This document shows positions 13,808 through 51,735 of a stretch of 64,000 bases of DNA, piece after piece. The stretch comes from Candidatus Altiarchaeales archaeon. GTDB lineage: Archaea; Altiarchaeota; Altiarchaeia; IMC4; SCGC-AAA252-I15. The stretch is from NCBI GenBank assembly GCA_014727915.1, contig WJMO01000006.1, forward strand, positions 472,762 to 536,761, in the 5' to 3' direction. The notes under the pieces were generated by a model that was given only the letters and a program-made list of their open reading frames with translations, searched no databases and was not told where the DNA came from. Each line of letters starts with the position of its first letter. The first letter of the stretch is position 1. Made by a program: the position numbers and the translations under genes.

Positions 13808-15051
13808 TTGTAGACCGGAAACTTACTGCAGAGGCTGCCAACCTCCGCCTTCACCTTATCCCTTACCTTCTCGCTCGAGGGGTCCGATAACACTTCGCTT
13901 ATCCAGGAGCCGATCAAGTTCATCTCAGACTCGCCCATACCCCTGACAGTGACCGAAGGGGTGCCAACCCTTATCCCAGAGGTGACGAACGGCTTCTCAT
14001 TGTCGTAGGGTACGGTGTTCTTGTTCAAGGTTATGCCTGCCGCGCCCAACGACTCCTCAGCCAGCTTCCCAGTGAGTCCCTTGTTCGAAAGGTCCGCCAG
14101 AATGAGATGGTTGTCCGTCCCGCCCGACACCAAGTCGAAACCATTATCAGAGAGTGTTGAGGCCATTGCCTTGCTGTTCTTCACCACCTGCTCCATCACC
14201 TTCTTCCTCTCACTTGTCATGTTCTCCTTGAAGCAAACGGCCTTCGCAGCGATTATGTGCATGAACGGCCCGCCCTGACACCCGGGGAAAACCGCACGGT
14301 CAACGTCCTTCGCATGCTCTTCCCGGCACATTATCATCGCGCCCCGGGGGCCCATCAGCGTCTTATGGGTTGTGGTAGTGATATAGTCCGCATATCTCAC
14401 AGGCGACGGATGAACTCCCGCAGCAACCAATCCTGCGATGTGAGCGATGTCCGCCAACAGCAACGCGCCGACGTCGTCGGCAATCTCCCGGAACTCCTTG
14501 AAAGGCACAGTCCTCGGGTAGGCGCTGTATCCGCAGACGATGATCTGGGGCTTCACCTCCCGGGCCCGGGCGAGCACCTCATCATATTCTATCACACCCG
14601 TCTCCTTGCTGACGGTGTAGAACTCCCCCTTGTAGATTTTCCCGGACTCGTTTATTTTGTAGCCGTGACTGAGGTGGCCGCCGTGGCTCAGCTCCATGGA
14701 CAGTATCTTGTCCCCTGGCTTCAACGCCGCAAGATACACGGCAAGGTTGGCCTGGGTGCCGCTGTGGGGCTGCACGTTAACATGATCAGCGCCGAATACC
14801 TTCTTGGCCCTTTCTATGGCCAGGTCCTCAACCAAATCGACGTTCTCACAACCCCCATAGTATCGCTTATGAGGATAACCTTCAGCGTACTTGTTGGTCA
14901 TCACGGAAGAGCATGCCTCGCGCACCGCCTGCGATGTGAGGCTCTCCGAGGCTATGAGGTTTATGCCCTCCTGCCGCCTCTCCTCCGCCCCTATAGCCTC
15001 CAAAACCCGGGGGTCAACCTCCGCCAAACTCCTGTAAAACGAAACGTCCAT
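13804..15051 (-). CDS. glyA: Serine hydroxymethyltransferase
   Basis: PLP-fold SHMT motifs ([27 protein letters not shown]). Start placed at the internal Met (MDVSFYRS); the ORF as given begins 15 codons earlier, at 15096. Confidence 0.8.
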
Positions 15052-15212
15052 GAGGATACAATATATGGGACCCATATTATAATAAAAACAGGACAAAACC
15101 GGATTTCACAATAGTTTAAACAATTATATGAACTATTAAAAGGAAAACAGGTATAATTCAAACAAAGACAAGCCTTATATTGCCATCCTCCCTACTACTA
15201 TAAGCTGTTTCT

Positions 15213-15293
15213 GGGCCTGTAGCCTAGCGGATGCTGCTCACATGCGTTCGCGCAGACGAAACTGCAACAGCAGTCTAGCCTAAGGCGACAGCC
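15213..15293 (+). repeat. Partial direct copy of the tRNA-Arg 5' half (positions 1-20 and 21-32) interrupted by a 49-nt insertion carrying a UUCG hairpin
   Basis: GGGCCTGTAGCCTAGCGGAT ... AAGGCGACAGCC matches nt 1-32 of the downstream tRNA. The insert (15233-15281) contains TGCG-TTCG-CGCA and a GCTGCT/AGCAGT stem. A TATA-like cttatatt lies about 35 nt upstream. Confidence 0.5.
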
Positions 15294-15326
15294 CAAAATA
15301 GAAAACATAGAAGGAAGCACATTCAC

Positions 15327-15478
15327 GGGCCTGTAGCCTAGCGGATAAGGCGACAGCCTTCTACGAGCCCCTTTCTTTTAAAAAAAGAAAGGTGCTTCAC
15401 CCCCAAAGAAAAAAATAGGGTGGTGAGGAAGGGTTCGGGGATAGCTGTAGATCATGGGTTCGAATCCCATCAGGCCCA
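15327..15478 (+). tRNA. tRNA-Arg (anticodon TCT) with a 79-nt intron at the canonical 37/38 position (intron 15364-15442)
   Basis: Hand-folded cloverleaf: acceptor GGGCCTG/CAGGCCC, D-arm GCCT-AGCGGATA-AGGC, anticodon stem ACAGC/GCTGT with loop CTTCTA|A, 5-nt variable loop, T-arm ATGGG-TTCGAAT-CCCAT, discriminator A, no encoded CCA. The intron holds a perfect 9-bp hairpin CTTTCTTTT-aaa-AAAAGAAAG. Confidence 0.7.
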
Positions 15479-15490
15479 CAAGAATTTTTT

Positions 15491-16966
15491 ATGTTGGGGT
15501 TAAGGGGTTTTATTTCCATCATTTTAATCCCTAATATGCGCTTATGTTGTCTGATAGTCCTTATCCTCATTTTCTCAGGCTGTATGGGAGGATATGACAA
15601 AACAGAAGAATCAAAGCCAGACAATTATTGTGAAACCGATCGAGATTGCAGCCCTCTCGGATGTTGTTGTCCTAAAAAATGTACGGGTTCAGTATATGCC
15701 AGCCAGTACTATTATGAAAACTGTAAAGGGAAACCCTGTCCAGAAGTAGTATGTAACCCTGTTGTGACATGCACTTGTGAAAATAACATGTGTAAAACAC
15801 ACAAAGATAGTGTATTCAAAAAAACCACTTCATCAACTCAATCCACCACGACAACTTTGAAGATTGGGACTGATTATTCTGAACTAATCCACATGTATAC
15901 TGACAAATTCGACTCAAACAGTTCTATAATCAAATGCCAAAATGATGATGACTGTATCTTAGTCCCAAATATTGGTAGTTGTAATGCTGGTGGCATAAAT
16001 ATAGCCATCAATAAGGATTTCCAAGAGGGGTGGAACAAGCAACTAAATGAAGAACGTAGAGGGATGGTGTTTGCAGGAGTCATGTCGCAGCATTCATCAT
16101 GTTTCTCAAATCCAGTTTGTAACGATAATAAATGCACGACTGAGATTAACAATACAATGATTTGCAGTCAACAGGATATTCGTGGAAACTGTGAAAATCC
16201 TGCATATGCGAATAACTGGAAAAAGGAACTGGGTATACGATGTGAAGATCTTAATGCAATATGTCAGTGGGGGATAGGGAATATCAATGCATCAGACTTC
16301 ATAAATTGGGATGAGAACTTCGGGTCGTGGGGGGATGAATACGGGACATTCATCCAACTTAGAGATTTTAGCGGATATGAGTACGACCTAAACTCCTCGG
16401 TGGACGAAAAATTAAAGGTCTACGCATTACGTCGTGAGAAAAGCAGGAATATATCAAAGGAGTTCATAGCTTTCCTGAAGCAGTTGGATGTGAGTATAGA
16501 TGAGGATAGGAGTTTCGGGAAGATAATGGTTGTCGGAGGACGAAAAGATGACATGCAAAAGGTCATCTTCCACCCCTATGTCGAGTCATATTCCAGAGAT
16601 AACCCGGGATTCCCGGAGGATATTTTCACAGAAACTGAGCTGAAATATTGCATGACTGATGATGACTGCATAAGTATTGAAGCATATAGGAATGGATGTA
16701 CGGCCGGTGGGACATCAATACCCATGAATAAAAAATTCAAGGAGTATTGGACCGATAAGAGATTGTCAGATACTCTTTTTACAGGAACTACTGGGGTGCT
16801 ATCCTTCCATTGGTCCTGTTTTGCAATCCCAAAATGTCTGAACCATAGGTGTGCATTAGTCAATACAACGTGTTCAAGTCCTGAGGATTGTGACGGAGGA
16901 TACTACTACGAAAAGTTCAGTGAAGGAATAATATGCAAAGACAATAAATGTTATGGGGATATTTAG
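15491..16966 (+). CDS. Cys-rich secreted (lipo)protein with two internal roughly 70-aa repeats (CxxDDDC...AGG...NK.F.E.W...SCF..P.C module)
   Basis: Signal peptide with an FSGC lipobox-like motif. Paired segments CQNDDDCILVPNIGSCNAGGINIAINKDFQEGW... and CMTDDDCISIEAYRNGCTAGGTSIPMNKKFKEYW.... N- and C-terminal Cys knots. Low-GC codon usage. Confidence 0.5.
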   Translation: MLGLRGFISIILIPNMRLCCLIVLILIFSGCMGGYDKTEESKPDNYCETDRDCSPLGCCCPKKCTGSVYASQYYYENCKGKPCPEVVCNPVVTCTCENNMCKTHKDSVFKKTTSSTQSTTTTLKIGTDYSELIHMYTDKFDSNSSIIKCQNDDDCILVPNIGSCNAGGINIAINKDFQEGWNKQLNEERRGMVFAGVMSQHSSCFSNPVCNDNKCTTEINNTMICSQQDIRGNCENPAYANNWKKELGIRCEDLNAICQWGIGNINASDFINWDENFGSWGDEYGTFIQLRDFSGYEYDLNSSVDEKLKVYALRREKSRNISKEFIAFLKQLDVSIDEDRSFGKIMVVGGRKDDMQKVIFHPYVESYSRDNPGFPEDIFTETELKYCMTDDDCISIEAYRNGCTAGGTSIPMNKKFKEYWTDKRLSDTLFTGTTGVLSFHWSCFAIPKCLNHRCALVNTTCSSPEDCDGGYYYEKFSEGIICKDNKCYGDI

Positions 16967-17086
16967 GCTTCAAAAAAGGTTCTATTTTTGTCTAATAGTT
17001 GTTCCAGACTAACTTATAGTGACTATATATTGCAATAATCTATATTATAGATATCGAGAAAAATTATATATTGTAAAAGATATATT

Positions 17087-18256
17087 ATGAAAAGGAGTGA
17101 TTTTCCAGCCCCAAATGGCAGGTTTTCAAAGAATTCCGATGGAGACCTTACATTCATCCCAAACAGGATAATCCGGGATATTGAGGGACTATACTCTTCG
17201 GAGATAGTGAGCCTTCTTTCAAAGGCTGACAGGATGCTTGGTTCCCTGGACCGGTGTAGTCAAAGCGACCCGAACATTGACTTCCTCGTCGCGCCCTACA
17301 TACGGCTCGAGGCTGTCGCGAGCTCAAGAATCGAGGGGACTCAGACAACTTTAACGGACTACTACAAGCTGGAGGCAGAAAAGAAAGGGGAACACGACCC
17401 GGACTATATCGAGGTCAACAACTACATCAAAACGATGATGGCAGGCTTTGAGAGGGTCATTGGCGGACAAAAAATCGACCTCCCCTTCGTCAAATCACTT
17501 CATAAGACCCTTGTAGCGGGAAGCGAGCGCACAAAGGGGGTTCCCGGCCATGTCAGGACGAAACAGAACTGGATAGCCCCCATGAACTCGCCGATAGAGC
17601 TTGCGACATATGTCCCACCAGATCCAATTAAACTGGAGCCCCTGCTAAAGGATATGCAAGGATTCATCCTGAAAGACGATGACATCCCGCCGCTCATAAA
17701 GACGGCATTGATACACTATCAGTTCGAGGCGATACACCCGTTCGAAGACGGAAATGGGAGGGTCGGGAGAATCATCAACTCCCTCTACCTCGGCCAGGCA
17801 GGATGCCTCCACAGCCCGATCCTGTTTTTGAGCTTCTATTTCCAAAAGCACAGGGACGAATACTGGGCGAGGTTGTTGAGGACCAGCCAGCAAAGCGACT
17901 TCGACGGATGGCTTAGATTCTTTTTGAAGGGCATTATAGAGCAATCGCAAAGGTCTATAGAGCTTTCAAACAAGATAGAAGGGTTGCATACCAGCTATCA
18001 GGAACGTCTTGAGAAAAAGAGGGTCACAGCGACCACATTAAAGGCTTTGAGGCTGCTTTTCACAGGCAACCCATTCGTGTATATGACCGAGCTTGCAAGG
18101 GAGCTGGACGTCCATCTTCCGACGGCAAAGAAGGCGATAACACAGCTTGAGAAAGAAGGCATCCTGAAGCAATCAAAGGTCAAAAAGCCAGCAATCTACT
18201 TCGCCCCCGAGATAATAGATACATTACGGAAGGCTGAAAAGGAAATGCTCAAATAA
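17087..18256 (+). CDS. Fic/DOC family protein (probable AMPylator) with a C-terminal winged helix
   Basis: Canonical Fic motif HPFEDGNGRVGR (HxFx[DE]GNGRxxR). 389 aa. Confidence 0.8.
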   Translation: MKRSDFPAPNGRFSKNSDGDLTFIPNRIIRDIEGLYSSEIVSLLSKADRMLGSLDRCSQSDPNIDFLVAPYIRLEAVASSRIEGTQTTLTDYYKLEAEKKGEHDPDYIEVNNYIKTMMAGFERVIGGQKIDLPFVKSLHKTLVAGSERTKGVPGHVRTKQNWIAPMNSPIELATYVPPDPIKLEPLLKDMQGFILKDDDIPPLIKTALIHYQFEAIHPFEDGNGRVGRIINSLYLGQAGCLHSPILFLSFYFQKHRDEYWARLLRTSQQSDFDGWLRFFLKGIIEQSQRSIELSNKIEGLHTSYQERLEKKRVTATTLKALRLLFTGNPFVYMTELARELDVHLPTAKKAITQLEKEGILKQSKVKKPAIYFAPEIIDTLRKAEKEMLK

Positions 18257-18522
18257 CGCTCACAAGGACGCAAAAAAGGGAGTACGTACTGGTGGGGTGG
18301 TCAGGCATCAGGCCCGCATCAAATTAGATTAGACCAGGGGTTCGAACGCTCGGAAACCGAAGGTTTCCGGCGCGCCAAAATCCGCAGGCTTTTGAGCGTC
18401 CCATCAGGCCCGATACAGGATAATAATTGGGTGAGTGTTTGCTTGAGGCCGAAACACACTTTTTTTCCGTTGGAAAAAACCGACCCAGCTGGCGCAGGGA
18501 ATAAAGACCCGAGTCAGGTGTG

Positions 18523-19128
18523 CTAGAATGCTCTTGCCACAATAACCGAGGCAGCTGACAACAGAAGAGTTAGCACTGGCATGCAAACACACGCAGTATC
18601 GGCTGGTCTATCGGGAGAGGGAACAGTTGATGATGGTTTTCGGGCGGGGTATTTCGCTTCGTTTATGATTTCAAATGCTGCGGTTTTTGTCTCGTCCTTT
18701 TCCGGGTTTAATATGCTCACATCAAGTGTGTAGTAGACGCCATCAGAGTAGAAGTCGAAAAAACACTGTTCCTCGTCGGAGCCCGCCATTTCACATATGT
18801 AATATAGAGTGTGGCCAGAGTATGTGGCCTTTCCCACATTTCCCTGTTCATAGCCTTTTTTTAGGTCAGTCCATTCCGAGCTGCTCATATGTTGTTTCTC
18901 GAAGATGGCGACGATCCTATCGTCTGTTGAAGCATAGGATCTGCTGTTCAGGCTTTCCTCAACCATGGTCAGGTCTAATGCTGGCACATGGTCAGGGAAG
19001 GTTAGTTCGGCGACCGCCGGTGGTGAAAGGATGAGGAGTGCGAGGATGGCGAGATTGGAATGTTTCAGCATATAGAATGATTTGAGGAAGTGAATAAAAA
19101 ACCCAGATTCTGCCATCAACACCCACAA
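18523..19128 (-). CDS. Secreted protein with a C-terminal hydrophobic anchor
   Basis: Signal peptide (probable start at 19071, MLKHSNLAIL...), a C-terminal TM segment, and a basic tail. Confidence 0.35.
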   Translation of the reverse strand: MWVLMAESGFFIHFLKSFYMLKHSNLAILALLILSPPAVAELTFPDHVPALDLTMVEESLNSRSYASTDDRIVAIFEKQHMSSSEWTDLKKGYEQGNVGKATYSGHTLYYICEMAGSDEEQCFFDFYSDGVYYTLDVSILNPEKDETKTAAFEIINEAKYPARKPSSTVPSPDRPADTACVCMPVLTLLLSAASVIVARAF

Positions 19129-19182
19129 TACAGAAATCCCATTAAATATTTTTTTATATTGAATATTGCATTAGATAATGTC

Positions 19183-19620
19183 ATGAAAATAGGTTTAATC
19201 CTGGGTTTGGTGATGTTAGCCTCTGGGTGTCTCTGCTGCTGCAGTGGGGGATCTGACTATGGAGACTATGACTATGATGATTGGGATGCACCAACGGATT
19301 ATGCGGCAGCTACGGTAGCCTCTCCCAGTGGGGGCCCCAGGTTGGACTGCCTAGACGGGCATACACTCAATGACATCATGTGCTACAAGGCAGGGGGTGG
19401 GATTTCAACGGATGCCAGCCTCTGCAAGCAGATAGATGATCCGATTGGAGTTGCCGCATGCCTTGGTGGTGTGGCAGCAGTTAAAGACGATCCTAGCCTA
19501 TGCAGTCAAAGCAGGGGGGACTTGCATGATTTCTGCGTTGACGTATCCAATAGCAACTTCGCAGGAGAAACGGCAGGTAGCTTGGAGGAGAAATATCCCT
19601 TCCTGAAGCGGTGGGAGTAG
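19183..19620 (+). CDS. Cys-rich secreted lipoprotein with D-x-x-x-C repeats
   Basis: Start moved to MKIGLILGLVMLASGC (lipobox-like). A TATA-like tttttatatt sits about 30 nt upstream. Repeats of the form C..IDDP...AC / C.QSRGDLHDFC. Confidence 0.45.
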   Translation: MKIGLILGLVMLASGCLCCCSGGSDYGDYDYDDWDAPTDYAAATVASPSGGPRLDCLDGHTLNDIMCYKAGGGISTDASLCKQIDDPIGVAACLGGVAAVKDDPSLCSQSRGDLHDFCVDVSNSNFAGETAGSLEEKYPFLKRWE

Positions 19621-19903: not shown

Positions 19904-22261
19904 ATGAAATCCGCTGACTTGAAGTCTTCAGCCGCCGCTGTCTTCGCAGTGTCGATGATGGGCTATCTGATGACCTTGGCTCCCACCGTGTATGGGGGGG
20001 ACAGCGGGGACATGATAACAGCCTCGTATAATCTTGGCGTGGCACACCCCACAGGGTACCCCCTTTATATGCTGTTGGGCAAGGTGTTCTCGCTCATCCC
20101 GGTTGGGACGGTGGCCTACAGGTATAATCTGATGAGCGCGGTGTTCAGCGCTTTGGCTGCGGTTTTCATCTGCCTAACCACGATTTCTTTCACTAAGTCC
20201 AGGTTGGCGGGTGTGGGGTCTGGGTTGATGGTGGCCTTCTCCCACGCGATTTGGGACCAGGCCACTGTCGCGGAGGTCTACGCCTTGAACGGTTTCTTCG
20301 TTTCCCTGCTGATCTGGCTGGCCGTAAGGTTCAGGGAGAAGCGGGATAAGACTCTGCTTAGATACATCGCCTTCGCCTTTGGGCTGGGTTTGACAAACCA
20401 CATATCCCTGGTGTTTTACGCGCCCGCATTCGCGTACCTGTTGTATGAGGGCAATAGGAAGGCGTTTATGAAGATAGGAGCGGAGGTCAAGGCCTTCCTT
20501 GTGGCGCCGCTCCTCTTGTATCTATACATTCCATTGCGGGCTGGCAACAGGGTTTACAGCTGGGGTGACCCCAGGGGCGCGGCGGGTTTCATAAGGCATG
20601 TCACGGGGAGCATACACCGGCAGACCTACACTCTAACATTGAGCAAAGAGGGTGTTTTCGAGCGTTTCTTCGGTTTGTTGTATCATTATTTCAGGCAGTT
20701 CTCCCTTGCGGGTGCGCTTGTGTTGGCTGGCCTATACAACCACGGCGGCAAGAACAGGACATACCTCCGGTTCACTGGCCTTATGGTTGGCGCCGACCTC
20801 ATCTACGCCCTCTTCATAAACGATGTTTCGCTTCGGATCACCACATTCTGCATCCCCAGCATAATGGCCTTGGGCGTCTGGTCAGGTTATGGATTCCGGG
20901 ACGTCTTCAAAAGTTTCAAGAGGGGAAAGGACAATGCCTTTGAGGCGGTCGCGGTGGCGGTTGTAGTCCTGATAGTGTTCGCCTCCAACCATTACATAAG
21001 CGACCGGTCCGATAATCTCATAGCATACGATTATGCGATGAACATATTGAGGTCCGTGGACGAAGGGGGTGTTGTCTTCGCGGAGGGTGATAATACCGTG
21101 CTGCCTTTGAATTATCTTCTGCTTGTCGAGGGAGTTAGGCCGGATGTGACCTTGTACGAGCGCACGGGTTTCCTAAGCCACAGACTATACGGGAAAGACT
21201 TCATATTCCTAGATGAGGATGAGCACGGGGAAGCCCGGGACAGGGTCGAGTATGAGGTGGTCCAGGAGGGCAGGCCGGTATATTATACGACCAAATCCGA
21301 TGTTGACCTTCCAGGGTACGATCTGGAGCAGGCGGGTTTAGTGTATAAGGTCGTGGCAGAGGGTGAAGAAGGCCCCTCAGAGGATTATTGGAACCTATAC
21401 GACTACCGGGGAGTTTGGAACCAGACCACCTACGAGGACTTCATGACCAGGTACATAAAGGCGGCCTATTACCTTCGCCTTGCGGAATACCGTATGGGAG
21501 AGGACAAAGACGCCGCTTTGGAGTTGCTCAACGACGCCAAGAGGCTCCTCCCAGACAATGTGGAACTCCACTATGACATAGGCAACATACTACTGAGCAA
21601 AGGCGACTATAAGGGCGCGGTGGAGGAGTTCGGGAAGGTTTTAAAGGAAGACGCCGAGAATGTGAAGGCCTTGAACAACAGGGGCTATGCATATGCGATG
21701 ATGGGATACGGTGAAAGCGCCAAGGAGGATTATATCAAGGCTCTGAAGTTGGAGCCAGGATATCTTAAGGCGCGTTTCAACCTGGCGGGGGCGCTGATGG
21801 CAGAGGAGAGGTTCGGAGAGGCCAGCCAACAGTACAAGCTCATAGTCGCCGCTGACCCCGAGTACGCTAACGCTTACTTCAACATGGGAGTGAGCCTGTA
21901 CAGGACCGGCGACCACCAGGGCGCAGTGGATGCGTGGACCAGGTATCTGGATTTGAGCCCTGACAGCCCCAGGGCCGGGGAGATACTCGAGCAGATTGAG
22001 ATAATAGAGGACCAGTATGCTATGGAGCAGAACCTGCTAGAATGCTCCAACGACAGCGACTGCACAGTAACAGAATATCCGATAAACGCGTGCTGCATGC
22101 AAAGGAAGTGCAGGTGGAGGGCTATAAACAAGGAAGGGCTTGAGCTCCAGGAGAGATGGAGGGAAGATGAGTGCGGAGAGGAAATCAAGTGCATGGTGGA
22201 TGACTGCGGGGAGCCGGACCGGGAGGTACAGTGCGTCAAGTTCAAGTGCAAGCTAATATAG
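19904..22261 (+). CDS. GT-C-fold membrane glycosyltransferase-like domain (DUF2723/TMEM260-like) fused to TPR repeats and a C-terminal Cys-rich CxxDxDC module
   Basis: About 11 TM helices with first-loop motifs GGDSGD and HPTGYPLY. Residues about 520-690 are TPR-like (repeated AxxYxxxG, A.EL..A, alternating hydrophobics). The C-tail CSNDSDCTVTEYPINACCMQRKC...C..C matches the module seen in 15491-16966. Confidence 0.5.
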   Translation: MKSADLKSSAAAVFAVSMMGYLMTLAPTVYGGDSGDMITASYNLGVAHPTGYPLYMLLGKVFSLIPVGTVAYRYNLMSAVFSALAAVFICLTTISFTKSRLAGVGSGLMVAFSHAIWDQATVAEVYALNGFFVSLLIWLAVRFREKRDKTLLRYIAFAFGLGLTNHISLVFYAPAFAYLLYEGNRKAFMKIGAEVKAFLVAPLLLYLYIPLRAGNRVYSWGDPRGAAGFIRHVTGSIHRQTYTLTLSKEGVFERFFGLLYHYFRQFSLAGALVLAGLYNHGGKNRTYLRFTGLMVGADLIYALFINDVSLRITTFCIPSIMALGVWSGYGFRDVFKSFKRGKDNAFEAVAVAVVVLIVFASNHYISDRSDNLIAYDYAMNILRSVDEGGVVFAEGDNTVLPLNYLLLVEGVRPDVTLYERTGFLSHRLYGKDFIFLDEDEHGEARDRVEYEVVQEGRPVYYTTKSDVDLPGYDLEQAGLVYKVVAEGEEGPSEDYWNLYDYRGVWNQTTYEDFMTRYIKAAYYLRLAEYRMGEDKDAALELLNDAKRLLPDNVELHYDIGNILLSKGDYKGAVEEFGKVLKEDAENVKALNNRGYAYAMMGYGESAKEDYIKALKLEPGYLKARFNLAGALMAEERFGEASQQYKLIVAADPEYANAYFNMGVSLYRTGDHQGAVDAWTRYLDLSPDSPRAGEILEQIEIIEDQYAMEQNLLECSNDSDCTVTEYPINACCMQRKCRWRAINKEGLELQERWREDECGEEIKCMVDDCGEPDREVQCVKFKCKLI

Positions 22262-50727: not shown

Positions 50728-51735
50728 TTAAGCGCAGAGCCTCTTCAATATGGGGTCTTCTATACGCTCGCATAGGCTTGTGTCCCTTGTCGTCTTCACG
50801 AGGCACATGTTCCTGTGGTCCGAGTTCACGACCTTCTCGCACAGGCTTGAAAGCCCCAGCCTCACCGCCAGCTTCTCACGGCAGTCGTCTGCAAGCCCGA
50901 TGTCCTCTATCCGGTCGCATAAGCTGGTTTCGTTCGTAATAAGCGCGTATGACCTGTAGCATTCGTCCGTCACGTTCTGCCTTAATGCTGCGCCGCACCT
51001 GCTCGAGTCGTTGAAGGTCAATGCGAACCACCTGAAGCAGCTCATTGCAGTATCCTCGGCTTCAACGTCCCTGCACCCGCTTATGTCGTATGTTATCTTG
51101 CTGGCCCCCGAATTGCAGGCGCTCACGTATGTCTTGTTGGATATGGCATTGCATAGTCCCGACTGGTTTGTTCTTTTCACTATCCTCCAGACGCAGACGT
51201 ACTCCTGGTAGTCGTCAACCACATGACTGCATACTTCCGCGTCAACCCTTATCTCGGCGACCTGCCTGTAACACAGGTCTCTCAGTTCACCGTCATTGAC
51301 TTCCTTGCATCCGGCAGGGTCGTGGGAGCTCTCCGAGACCTTCATCAGGCACTGGTCCTTCTGCTTCACGTCTTCCATGCTGTTGCAGATTATGGAGTCG
51401 TTCAATGCTCCTGCGAGCTCACGGTAGCACTTTTCCCTCATCCACTCTATGTTAACTCCCTCGCAGGCTGTGCTGTCTCCTAGTGCGCCGGCCATGTGGA
51501 TGTTGCACTCGCTCCTCTTGTCCTCGTCAAGGATTCTACCGCATAATGACGATATGTTGGCGGTTTTCGCAACCTCCAGCATGCAGTCGTCCCTCCGGTA
51601 GTCAAGTTTGATGTTCTCGCATATGCCAGCGTCCATCTCCTCGACTGCCCTATCATAGTGTCTCTTGTCCACGTCGAGGCAACCACATGCGAGCAACATC
51701 AAAAAAACGACCATCAGCGAGCGCATGATAACCAT
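50728..51735 (-). CDS. Secreted lipoprotein made of about 12 tandem 25-aa two-Cys repeats
   Basis: Signal peptide with an LLACGC lipobox. Repeating unit of the form C-x3-[DE]-x5-[DE]-C-x8-10-[SA]-x-C, for example CDRIEDIGLADDCREKLAVRLGLSSLCEKVV. Confidence 0.5.
   Translation of the reverse strand: MVIMRSLMVVFLMLLACGCLDVDKRHYDRAVEEMDAGICENIKLDYRRDDCMLEVAKTANISSLCGRILDEDKRSECNIHMAGALGDSTACEGVNIEWMREKCYRELAGALNDSIICNSMEDVKQKDQCLMKVSESSHDPAGCKEVNDGELRDLCYRQVAEIRVDAEVCSHVVDDYQEYVCVWRIVKRTNQSGLCNAISNKTYVSACNSGASKITYDISGCRDVEAEDTAMSCFRWFALTFNDSSRCGAALRQNVTDECYRSYALITNETSLCDRIEDIGLADDCREKLAVRLGLSSLCEKVVNSDHRNMCLVKTTRDTSLCERIEDPILKRLCA

What the first reader, a model, noticed from the sequence alone, without database searches (positions are those of the whole stretch)
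15491..16966. Recurrent, apparently uncharacterised Cys-rich extracellular module (CxxDxDC...GxC.AGG...NK.F.E.W...SCF..P.C), internally duplicated and shared with other proteins in the window
15491-16966 contains two roughly 70-aa repeats with near-identical Cys spacing and conserved non-Cys positions (DDDCI, AGG, NK-F-E-W, SCF-P-C). The N-terminal half of this module reappears as the C-terminal tail of the GT-C/TPR protein (22020-22261, CSNDSDCTVTEYPINACC...). Similar D-x-D-C motifs occur in the lipoprotein at 19183-19620. Together with the 12x two-Cys-repeat protein at 50728-51735, the organism invests heavily in disulfide-rich surface proteins, all carrying L-x-x-G-C lipobox-like signal peptides. 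I could not match the module to a known domain from memory.
Basis: seen in the sequence. Interest (0 to 1): 0.65.

Follow-up and report, generated by a model that had tools for sequence, protein, structure and literature searches.

The report
Uncurated cysteine-rich surface domain family
The gene encodes a membrane-tethered surface protein of an Altiarchaeales archaeon built from copies of a real, widespread cysteine-rich domain that has no entry in the domain or structure libraries searched, so it is a good candidate for a new protein family, although its function is still only inferred.

Summary
The ORF is real. Its likely start is ATG 15536, which gives a signal peptide with a lipobox (MRLCCLIVLILIFSGC). 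It holds two ~76-aa modules (32% identical, BLASTP E 6e-16).

The modules are not private to this genome. An exhaustive profile search found 390 protein clusters (77 at E<=1e-10). A genome scan confirmed the module in 114 loci from DPANN archaea, Altiarchaeota, ANME/Methanosarcinales, Patescibacteria, Myxococcota and Bdellovibrionales.

The canonical form has 10 Cys (y.C..D.DC...CCGC.aGG...AINK.Y...W...C....C..vmS.H.SCF..PkC..NkC.L). Both window copies keep the 6 invariant Cys and have lost the same 4, a pattern unique among 264 domains.

The GT-C/TPR tail (22028-22258) and an N-terminal 12-Cys segment (15623-15799) are probable remote copies. The lipoprotein at 19183-19620 is unrelated.

Function is inferred only: a disulfide-locked binding or recognition module displayed outside the membrane. 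Hints come from fusions to chagasin-type inhibitors and two-Cys repeats, and from a Ser/Thr-kinase operon in Myxococcota. Verdict: a genuine, uncurated domain family of moderate interest.

The parts
15536..16966 (+). Gene for a 476-aa Cys-rich lipobox protein. It is NCBI 'hypothetical protein GF416_06355', Candidatus Altiarchaeales archaeon, annotated there 16 aa shorter.
   Evidence: ORF. 100% identical database entry. GC 0.40 against 0.53 for the window. A TATA-like TTTTATTT lies 23-30 nt upstream of ATG 15536 (sequence; inference).
15536..15583 (+). Signal peptide with a lipobox-like end (MRLCCLIVLILIFSGC); Cys16 is the presumed lipid-attachment site.
   Evidence: Translation. Lipidation is inferred from the motif and was not tested.
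15623..15799 (+). N-terminal short 12-Cys variant (NYCETDRDCSPLGCCCPKKC...CENNMCKT), a probable remote copy of the module that lacks the INK-helix.
   Evidence: hhalign against the family: prob 36%, P 3.7e-4. phmmer against P0034 aa 138-198: E 0.0025. Family and Myxococcota-variant HMMs give 15.3 and 28.2 bits, but only without composition correction.
15818..15859 (+). Ser/Thr-rich linker (KKTTSSTQSTTTTL), a presumed stalk and possible O-glycosylation site.
   Evidence: Translation. Thr-rich linkers occur next to the module in 19 of 150 family representatives. Glycosylation is inference.
15920..16147 (+). Module copy R1, core (76 aa, 6 Cys).
   Evidence: Family HMM built without the window's sequences: 92.7 bits, E 6.6e-28. 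AlphaFold2 pLDDT 93.2.
16148..16270 (+). 4-Cys helical extension of R1 (ICSQQDIRGNC...GIRCEDLNAICQW), shared with Altiarchaeota-type family members.
   Evidence: Aligned with the tails of P0011, P0017, P0056 and others. Extended model pLDDT 88.4.
16271..16633 (+). Cys-free middle region of 121 aa with no detectable relatives.
   Evidence: Pfam gave nothing significant. phmmer against all fetched sequences: best hit E 0.03.
16634..16864 (+). Module copy R2, core (77 aa, 6 Cys).
   Evidence: Family HMM built without the window's sequences: 80.3 bits, E 4.6e-24.
16865..16963 (+). Short 4-Cys C-terminal extension of R2.
   Evidence: Aligned to the R1 extension.
22028..22258 (+). C-terminal 10-Cys tail of the TMEM260-like GT-C/TPR protein (gene 19904-22261), a probable divergent copy of the module.
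   Evidence: Pfam TMEM260-like 5.6e-38 plus TPR for the rest of the protein. Tail against the family: hhalign prob 71%, P 3.6e-5; phmmer against the L070 module E 6.5e-4, end to end. The C..D.DC motif has P 0.005 given the tail's composition.

Best explanation
ORF 15536-16966 encodes a lipid-anchored protein that sits outside the cytoplasmic membrane of a Candidatus Altiarchaeales archaeon.

Layout, in order:
- a Sec-type signal peptide ending in a lipobox;
- a short Cys-rich variant module;
- a Thr/Ser-rich stalk;
- two ~76-aa modules, each with a small 4-Cys extension, separated by a Cys-free region.

The ~76-aa module belongs to a large, so far uncurated domain family of secreted or membrane-tethered proteins. 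The family occurs in DPANN archaea, Altiarchaeota, ANME/Methanosarcinales, Patescibacteria, Myxococcota and Bdellovibrionales.

The canonical domain is a compact alpha/beta unit (strand-strand-long helix-loop-short helix-hairpin) held by five inferred disulfides. The window's two copies are a stripped-down version that keeps three inferred disulfides and all conserved non-Cys positions (D-x-D, GG, INK, W, S-x-H, F, P).

Most likely mechanism (inferred, not shown): the module is a rigid, disulfide-locked binding or recognition head. It is held away from the membrane by an N-terminal anchor and stalk, and its conserved polar positions form the ligand site. In different lineages the same head is attached to other extracytoplasmic functions or paired with a membrane Ser/Thr kinase.

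The gene lies in a low-GC, tRNA-flanked islet beside a SoFic defence gene, so it was probably acquired horizontally.
For: Shown:
- Repeats are real.
- The family exists: 390 clusters at E<=1e-3 and 77 at E<=1e-10 in an exhaustive HMM search of 1.84 billion representatives.
- 114 of 119 genome loci found by a motif scan encode the domain.
- A family HMM built without the window's copies scores R1 at 92.7 bits and R2 at 80.3 bits.
- Consensus and Cys patterns: 165 of 264 domains have all 10 Cys. C3 is lost together with C6 in 24 domains and C4 together with C7 in 2. The window pattern CC..C..CCC is unique.
- AlphaFold2 gives pLDDT 93.2 for the core and 88.4 for the extended unit.
- There is no curated family or solved fold.

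Extracytoplasmic location:
- 129 of 150 representatives have an N-terminal hydrophobic segment.
- 91 of 156 domains end within 8 residues of the C-terminus.
- The target carries a lipobox.

Functional hints:
- Fusion partners are all extracytoplasmic: chagasin I42 in 6 members, Big_14 in 5, PrcB_C in 3, plus S_layer_C and Excalibur.
- In Myxococcota, 23 loci have a Ser/Thr kinase gene immediately downstream on the same strand.
- The module is fused or adjacent to the two-Cys repeat family that is also present in the window.

Islet: gene GC is 0.40 against 0.53 for the window. It is flanked by an intron-bearing tRNA at 15327-15478 and a SoFic gene.
Against: - No experiment and no characterised relative exists, so the binding function is only an inference from architecture.
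- Neighbours of the module genes in archaea and Patescibacteria show nothing conserved.
- The kinase operon is seen only in Myxococcota and could reflect shared ancestry of those genomes.
- Disulfide bonding rests on pairwise Cys co-loss and on secretion signals, not on coordinates or chemistry. Many carriers are strict anaerobes, in which extracellular disulfides are less self-evident.
- AFDB fold libraries were unavailable, so a structural relative among predicted structures cannot be excluded.
Confidence: 0.6

Rival explanations
1. The module is a protease inhibitor, or a protease-associated protective domain. It would be a small, disulfide-rich protein tethered to the surface that blocks the cell's own or foreign secreted peptidases.
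For: - About one third of the representatives are <=160-aa proteins (50 of 150), which typically place a single module behind an N-terminal anchor. This format is typical of inhibitors.
- The commonest fusion partners are the chagasin-type cysteine-peptidase inhibitor I42 (6 of 149) and PrcB_C (3 of 149), which is named for a protease-associated protein.
- Carriers include predatory Myxococcota and Bdellovibrionales, and episymbiotic DPANN and CPR organisms.
Against: - Fusions to I42 and PrcB_C are rare: 9 of 149.
- No peptidase genes are enriched among the neighbours.
- There is no similarity to any inhibitor family in Pfam or the PDB.
Confidence: 0.15
2. The cysteines bind metal (Zn or another ion) rather than forming disulfides, so the domain is an extracytoplasmic metal-binding or redox module.
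For: - Many carriers are anaerobes (Altiarchaeota, ANME, DPANN).
- The family has a CCGC/CxC motif and a very high Cys content.
Against: - Cysteines are lost in pairs (C3 with C6 in 24 domains, C4 with C7 in 2), not in sets of three or four.
- The window copies lack four Cys yet keep every other conserved position, and still model confidently.
- The target's signal peptide has a single Arg and no twin-arginine motif. This points to Sec export of an unfolded, cofactor-free chain (sequence; inference).
Confidence: 0.1
3. The module has no ligand of its own. It is a rigid structural spacer or stabilising cap for surface proteins.
For: - It appears at the C-terminal end of very different proteins and in tandem copies.
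- No conserved genomic partner exists outside Myxococcota.
Against: - Several non-Cys polar positions are nearly invariant across two domains of life: D, GG, INK, S. They are kept even in the reduced window copies. That is more than a spacer needs.
- About one third of the representatives are small proteins of <=160 aa, many of them little more than an anchor plus one module.
Confidence: 0.12
4. The similarity is a compositional artefact of Cys-rich sequence, or the module is a diverged member of a known family such as EGF, LDL-receptor class A, Dickkopf or a carbohydrate-binding module.
For: Weak sub-threshold Pfam hits occur:
- Nodulin_late, 16.2 bits for the GT-C tail;
- Ldl_recept_a, 14.4 bits for P0014;
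- DUF7107, 10.7 to 19.7 bits.
Against: - All those hits are far below the gathering scores and cover only the C..D.DC or C-terminal Cys stretch.
- Family matches are strong (up to 119 bits) and run end to end over 75 columns, including non-Cys positions.
- The predicted fold has a 14-residue helix and no PDB neighbour.
Confidence: 0.03

Closest known systems
LDL-receptor class A and similar small acidic-Cys modules (Pfam PF00057)
   Same: An extracellular, disulfide-rich module with an Asp-x-Asp-Cys type acidic motif next to a Cys. It is used as a repeated binding unit in modular proteins.
   Different: - About 76 aa rather than about 40.
- 6 to 10 Cys with different spacing.
- The predicted alpha/beta fold has a 14-residue helix.
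- Pfam score is at most 14.4 bits against a cut-off of 24.1, and only for one relative. The window protein gives no hit.
Late nodulin / NCR peptides (Pfam PF07127)
   Same: Shares the C-x2-D-x-D-C start followed by further Cys. It was the best Pfam hit of the GT-C tail.
   Different: - 16.2 bits against a cut-off of 30.4.
- These are plant peptides of about 50 aa.
- The match covers only the first 27 residues, so it is motif coincidence.
Chagasin-type inhibitor (I42) lipoproteins of archaea and bacteria
   Same: They have the same cellular location and the same format of a small domain behind an anchor. I42 is physically fused to the module in 6 family members, for example P0004: module, I42, module.
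   Different: I42 is an Ig-like all-beta domain without this Cys pattern. It is a fusion partner, not a homologue.
Extracytoplasmic sensor partners of bacterial Ser/Thr kinases
   Same: In 23 Myxococcota loci a two-module lipoprotein gene sits directly upstream of a Ser/Thr kinase gene on the same strand. This is the arrangement expected of a co-sensor.
   Different: No kinase lies near the window gene. The module shows no similarity to PASTA or other known kinase sensor domains (no Pfam hit). The link was not tested functionally.
TMEM260/TMTC-type GT-C O-mannosyltransferases with lumenal TPR domains
   Same: The neighbouring gene 19904-22261 has the TMEM260-like GT-C core plus TPR repeats. 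Its extra C-terminal tail is the probable module copy.
   Different: Among the 149 family representatives scanned against Pfam, none matched a GT-C or TPR family. The known eukaryotic enzymes, as recalled from the literature, carry no such Cys-rich tail; this was not tested here.

Membership tests
Uncurated 'CxxDxDC-CCGC-AINK' module family (defined here from 155 domains of 150 cluster representatives) | Significant end-to-end match to a family profile built without the window's own copies | tested here: met
   R1 scores 92.7 bits, E 6.6e-28. R2 scores 80.3 bits, E 4.6e-24.
Uncurated 'CxxDxDC-CCGC-AINK' module family | Six invariant Cys (C1, C2, C5, C8, C9, C10) in register | tested here: met
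   The invariant Cys columns (C1, C2, C5, C8, C9, C10) are present in both window copies. The window's Cys pattern is CC..C..CCC.
Uncurated 'CxxDxDC-CCGC-AINK' module family | Four further Cys (C3, C4, C6, C7). These are typical but not universal: all ten Cys are present in 165 of 264 domains. | tested here: not met
   Both window copies lack all four, a combination seen in no other of the 264 domains. The window copies are therefore filed as a reduced variant, not as a typical member.
Uncurated 'CxxDxDC-CCGC-AINK' module family | Conserved non-Cys positions: D-x-D before C2, GG, (I/M)NK, aromatic-x3-W, S-x-H/D before C8, F after C8, P before C9 | tested here: met
   All are present in R1 and R2 (alignments).
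Uncurated 'CxxDxDC-CCGC-AINK' module family | Secreted or membrane-tethered context | tested here: met
   The target has the lipobox MRLCCLIVLILIFSGC. 129 of 150 representatives have an N-terminal hydrophobic segment. Export itself is not testable here.
Uncurated 'CxxDxDC-CCGC-AINK' module family, applied to the GT-C tail 22028-22258 | Significant match to the family profile | tested here: inconclusive
   HMM: 6.7 bits, E 0.27 with composition correction; 19.9 bits, E 2.3e-5 without it. hhalign: prob 71%. phmmer against one member: E 6.5e-4.
Uncurated 'CxxDxDC-CCGC-AINK' module family, applied to lipoprotein 19183-19620 | Motif C..D.DC and a match to the profile | tested here: not met
   No motif. 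E 32 with the repeat HMM. Absent from the family-HMM hit lists.
LDL-receptor class A (PF00057), EGF-like, Dickkopf, late nodulin, carbohydrate-binding modules | Pfam match at or above the gathering score, or structural similarity to a solved member | tested here: not met
Lipobox lipoproteins | Positively charged n-region, hydrophobic h-region, then [LVI][ASTVI][GAS]C | tested here: inconclusive
   The sequence M-R, LCCLIVLILIF, S-G-C fits, except for Phe at position -3. Lipid modification and the archaeal machinery are not testable with these tools.

The most novel reading that the evidence does not exclude
The module represents a new fold family of disulfide-locked extracellular recognition domains. 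It is shared by ultra-small episymbionts (DPANN, Patescibacteria), biofilm- and consortium-forming archaea (Altiarchaeota, ANME) and predatory bacteria (Myxococcota, Bdellovibrionales).

In this reading it serves cell-cell or envelope recognition. It signals through a dedicated Ser/Thr kinase in Myxococcota. In Altiarchaeales it is also borne by a GT-C glycosyltransferase, which would use it to find the Thr-rich stalks of module-bearing surface proteins as substrates.
Probability: 0.2. Interest if true: 0.75.

Novelty: new variant of a known kind. Interest (0 to 1): 0.5.

Why it matters
Small disulfide-rich surface modules are a familiar kind of protein part. This one has no curated family and no solved structure, and no characterised member was found. 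Yet it occurs in at least 390 sequence clusters across both prokaryotic domains.

It is concentrated in lineages whose biology depends on cell-cell contact: DPANN and CPR episymbionts, Altiarchaeota, ANME and predatory Myxococcota.

Defining it would have three uses:
- It would give annotators a name for hundreds of 'hypothetical' surface proteins.
- It offers a tractable, well-predicted 76-aa target for structure and ligand work.
- It provides a natural series (10, 8 and 6 Cys) for studying how disulfides are shed during evolution.

The Myxococcota lipoprotein-kinase operon gives a route to function in a phylum that has cultured representatives.

Tried and rejected
- **Word-index homologue searches.** The full protein found only itself. 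The family alignment gave only 16 hits. The GT-C tail gave no candidates. The exhaustive search was what revealed the family.
- **The search for related loci with the family alignment.** I replaced it with a degenerate DNA motif scan.
- **Metagenome scan with the GT-C protein.** I hoped to collect orthologous tails, but it found no relatives. The tail's homology therefore could not be tested profile against profile.
- **AFDB fold libraries.** They were not available.
- **Viral contigs.** The motif gave 0 matches, so there is no sign of a phage receptor-binding role.
- **Neighbour analysis in archaea and CPR.** Only unrelated housekeeping genes turned up.
- **Middle Cys-free region.** It has no relatives.
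- **Hydropathy count of GT-C membrane segments.** It was too crude to fix the topology. The outside location of the tail rests on what is known of TMEM260/TMTC enzymes and on its 10 Cys.
- **Possible tRNA fragment at 18296-18420.** I looked at it as a second attachment-site half, but it is not a tRNA by Rfam.
- **Literature searches.** Two searches for a description of such a domain found nothing relevant.
- **Recent internal duplication.** Rejected, because each copy scores higher against modules of other proteins than against its partner.

Full report
**Observation**

The ORF 15491-16966 (+) is present. BLASTP of the two halves gives 32% identity over 113 residues, E 6e-16.

The strict motif C..D.DC occurs four times in the six-frame translation of the window, against 0.13 expected from shuffles. 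Three occurrences are in this ORF and one is in the C-terminal tail of the GT-C/TPR protein.

The lipoprotein at 19183-19620 does not contain the motif and does not match any profile of the module.

The two-Cys-repeat protein at 50728-51735 is real and starts with a lipobox.

**Gene model**

An intron-containing tRNA lies at 15327-15478 on the same strand, so ATG 15491 is only 13 nt behind it. ATG 15536 gives MRLCCLIVLILIFSGC, a short charged start, a hydrophobic core and a lipobox-like S-G-C. A TATA-like TTTTATTT sits 23-30 nt upstream (sequence; inference).

The identical public entry is 'hypothetical protein GF416_06355', Candidatus Altiarchaeales archaeon. It is annotated 16 residues shorter and therefore lacks the signal peptide.

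Numbered from 15536, the protein reads as follows:
- signal peptide with lipobox, aa 1-16;
- a 12-Cys segment, aa 30-88;
- a Ser/Thr-rich linker, aa 95-108;
- module R1, aa 129-204, with a 4-Cys extension to aa 245;
- a Cys-free region, aa 246-366;
- module R2, aa 367-443, with a short 4-Cys extension to the end.

**The module belongs to a large family**

A word-indexed search with the whole protein found only itself. An exhaustive HMMER search of 1.84 billion cluster representatives, using a profile of the two repeats, found 390 proteins at E<=1e-3 and 77 at E<=1e-10.

An alignment of 155 domains gives this consensus, with ten cysteines:

y.C..DsDCI.V..gCCGCnaGG.atAINK.Y...W..kL..eC..i.CpAVmS.HwSCFaePKCvnNkC.Lv

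Of these, 114 encode the domain by HMM. By lineage they are:
- 75 Myxococcota or 'Deltaproteobacteria';
- 19 DPANN archaea (Woese-, Nano-, Aenigm-, Parvarchaeota);
- 7 Patescibacteria;
- 2 Altiarchaeota;
- 2 uncultured archaea;
- 1 Methanosarcinales and 1 Methanophagales;
- 2 Bdellovibrionales;
- 4 other Proteobacteria;
- 1 uncultured bacterium.

A family HMM built without the window's copies scores R1 at 92.7 bits and R2 at 80.3 bits.

**A reduced variant**

Of 264 aligned domains, 165 have all ten Cys. Twenty-four lack C3 and C6 together, and two lack C4 and C7 together. The pattern of the two window copies, which lack C3, C4, C6 and C7, occurs nowhere else (see also the alignment).

Loss in pairs argues for the disulfides C3-C6 and C4-C7. 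The six invariant Cys would then form three more. All conserved non-Cys positions are kept in both copies.

**Not a known family or fold**

- Pfam-A gave no family at E<=1 for the protein.
- For single repeats it gave only sub-threshold hits.
- For 149 family representatives it gave no family covering the module.
- For ten genome-derived members it gave none either.
- NCBIfam, PADLOC and PHROGs and PDB sequences gave nothing.

AlphaFold2 with a 37-sequence alignment gives pLDDT 93.2 and pTM 0.76 for R1. The order of elements is strand, strand, 14-residue helix, loop, short helix, hairpin. The unit extended by the 4-Cys tail gives pLDDT 88.4 and adds three short helices.

**Relations among the copies**

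R1 and R2 are not each other's nearest relatives. Each ranks the other 28th to 85th of about 210 family domains.

R1 and its tail are closest to the modules of 480-566-aa type I membrane proteins such as P0011, P0008 and P0056. These proteins share their architecture with the Altiarchaeota proteins in L067 and L073. R2 is closest to a 'HWTCFAEPKC' group that includes Woesearchaeota and Methanophagales proteins.

The protein therefore combines old paralogues or shuffled modules, and the identical loss of four Cys is probably parallel.

The GT-C tail aligns end to end with family members, with all ten Cys, AINK and W in register. Support is moderate:
- hhalign prob 71%, P 3.6e-5;
- phmmer E 6.5e-4 against one member;
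- HMM E 0.27 with composition correction and 2.3e-5 without it.

The N-terminal 12-Cys segment resembles short variants that accompany the module elsewhere, such as P0034 aa 138-198 (E 0.0025) and the first copy in Myxococcota lipoproteins. Here again significance depends on the composition correction.

**Surroundings**

The gene has GC 0.40 against 0.53 for the window. It lies between the tRNA and a Fic/HTH gene that matches the SoFic defence model at 9e-99. This points to a small acquired islet. No attachment-site repeat was found beyond a 20-nt copy of the tRNA 5' end at 15213-15232.

**Function**

No relative is characterised, so the following is inference.

About one third of the representatives are <=160 aa. 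Many of these are little more than an anchor plus one module. Of 150 representatives, 129 have an N-terminal hydrophobic segment. Of 156 domains, 91 end at the C-terminus.

Fusion partners are all extracytoplasmic:
- chagasin-type inhibitor I42 (6 members);
- Big_14 (5 members);
- PrcB_C (3 members);
- PsbP_2, S_layer_C, Excalibur and a GxGYxYP glycosidase-like protein.

In Myxococcota a two-module lipoprotein gene is followed directly, on the same strand, by a Ser/Thr kinase gene in 23 loci.

The window's two-Cys-repeat lipoprotein (50728-51735) is homologous to a gene embedded among four module genes in a Patescibacteria locus (E 9e-17). It is also homologous to the C-terminal part of a Methanosarcinales protein that begins with a module (E 3.5e-8).

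Neighbours in archaea and Patescibacteria show nothing conserved, and the motif is absent from viral contigs.

The reading I commit to is a rigid, disulfide-locked binding or recognition head displayed on a stalk outside the membrane. I am about 85% confident in the anatomy and the family assignment, and about 35% confident in the binding function, which gives 0.6 overall. The rivals are a protease inhibitor, a metal-binding module, a mere spacer, and a diverged known family or compositional artefact, which is largely refuted.

**Novelty**

Disulfide-rich surface modules are a known kind of part. This family, its predicted fold and its 6-Cys variant are not in any library I could search. I rate it a new variant of a known kind, of moderate interest.

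The main caveats are three:
- predicted-structure databases and newer family releases were not searched;
- disulfides and export are inferred;
- the functional hints come from other lineages.

Noticed in passing
window 50728-51735 (-); L110:3705-4850; L075:1294-2466: The 12x two-Cys-repeat lipoprotein has no Pfam match. It is homologous to a gene embedded in a cluster of four module genes in a Patescibacteria MAG (E 9e-17). It is also homologous to repeats fused behind a module in a Methanosarcinales MAG (E 3.5e-8). It looks like a second uncurated Cys-repeat family, functionally linked to the module.
   Followed up: partly
window 17087-18256 (+): The gene directly downstream of the target encodes a Fic_N/Fic protein with a C-terminal winged-helix domain. 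It matches the PADLOC SoFic anti-phage defence model at 9e-99 and sits in the same low-GC stretch.
   Followed up: partly
window 15327-15478 (+) and 15213-15232: This is a tRNA gene with an intron of about 81 nt in the anticodon loop. ARAGORN missed it and Rfam found it at 59.6 bits. An exact 20-nt copy of its 5' end lies 114 nt upstream, within a stretch that does not score as a tRNA.
   Followed up: partly
window 18296-18420 (+): An intergenic stretch contains two copies of CATCAGGCCC and a GGGTTCGAA box reminiscent of a tRNA T-arm, plus a GC-rich hairpin. No Rfam family matches, so it remains unexplained.
   Followed up: partly
window 15000-19500: GC drops to 0.37-0.50 over about 4.5 kb, against about 0.55 on both sides. 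The stretch spans the target gene, the SoFic gene and two small secreted or lipobox proteins (18523-19128 on the minus strand, 19183-19620 on the plus strand). Neither small protein has a family match.
   Followed up: partly
L010, L024, L028, L032, L034, L036 and 17 further Myxococcota loci: A conserved gene pair: a lipoprotein of about 270 aa with a short-variant copy plus a canonical copy of the module, followed within a few tens of nt on the same strand (or slightly overlapping) by a Ser/Thr protein kinase gene; the complete kinase ORFs are about 600-800 aa.
   Followed up: partly
L067:3530-4981, L073:3551-5248; P0008, P0011, P0017: An Altiarchaeota-type family of 480-566-aa type I membrane proteins. 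Each has an uncharacterised N-terminal domain of about 240 aa (W-S-D-Y...YF.D..V..VWG), then the module with its 4-Cys tail, a Thr-rich linker, a transmembrane segment and a charged tail ending in TSLG. No Pfam or NCBIfam match was found.
   Followed up: no
window 15536 vs public annotation: The public protein entry is 460 aa and starts at Met17 (MGGYDK...), which cuts off the signal peptide and lipobox. The start at 15536 is more plausible.
   Followed up: yes
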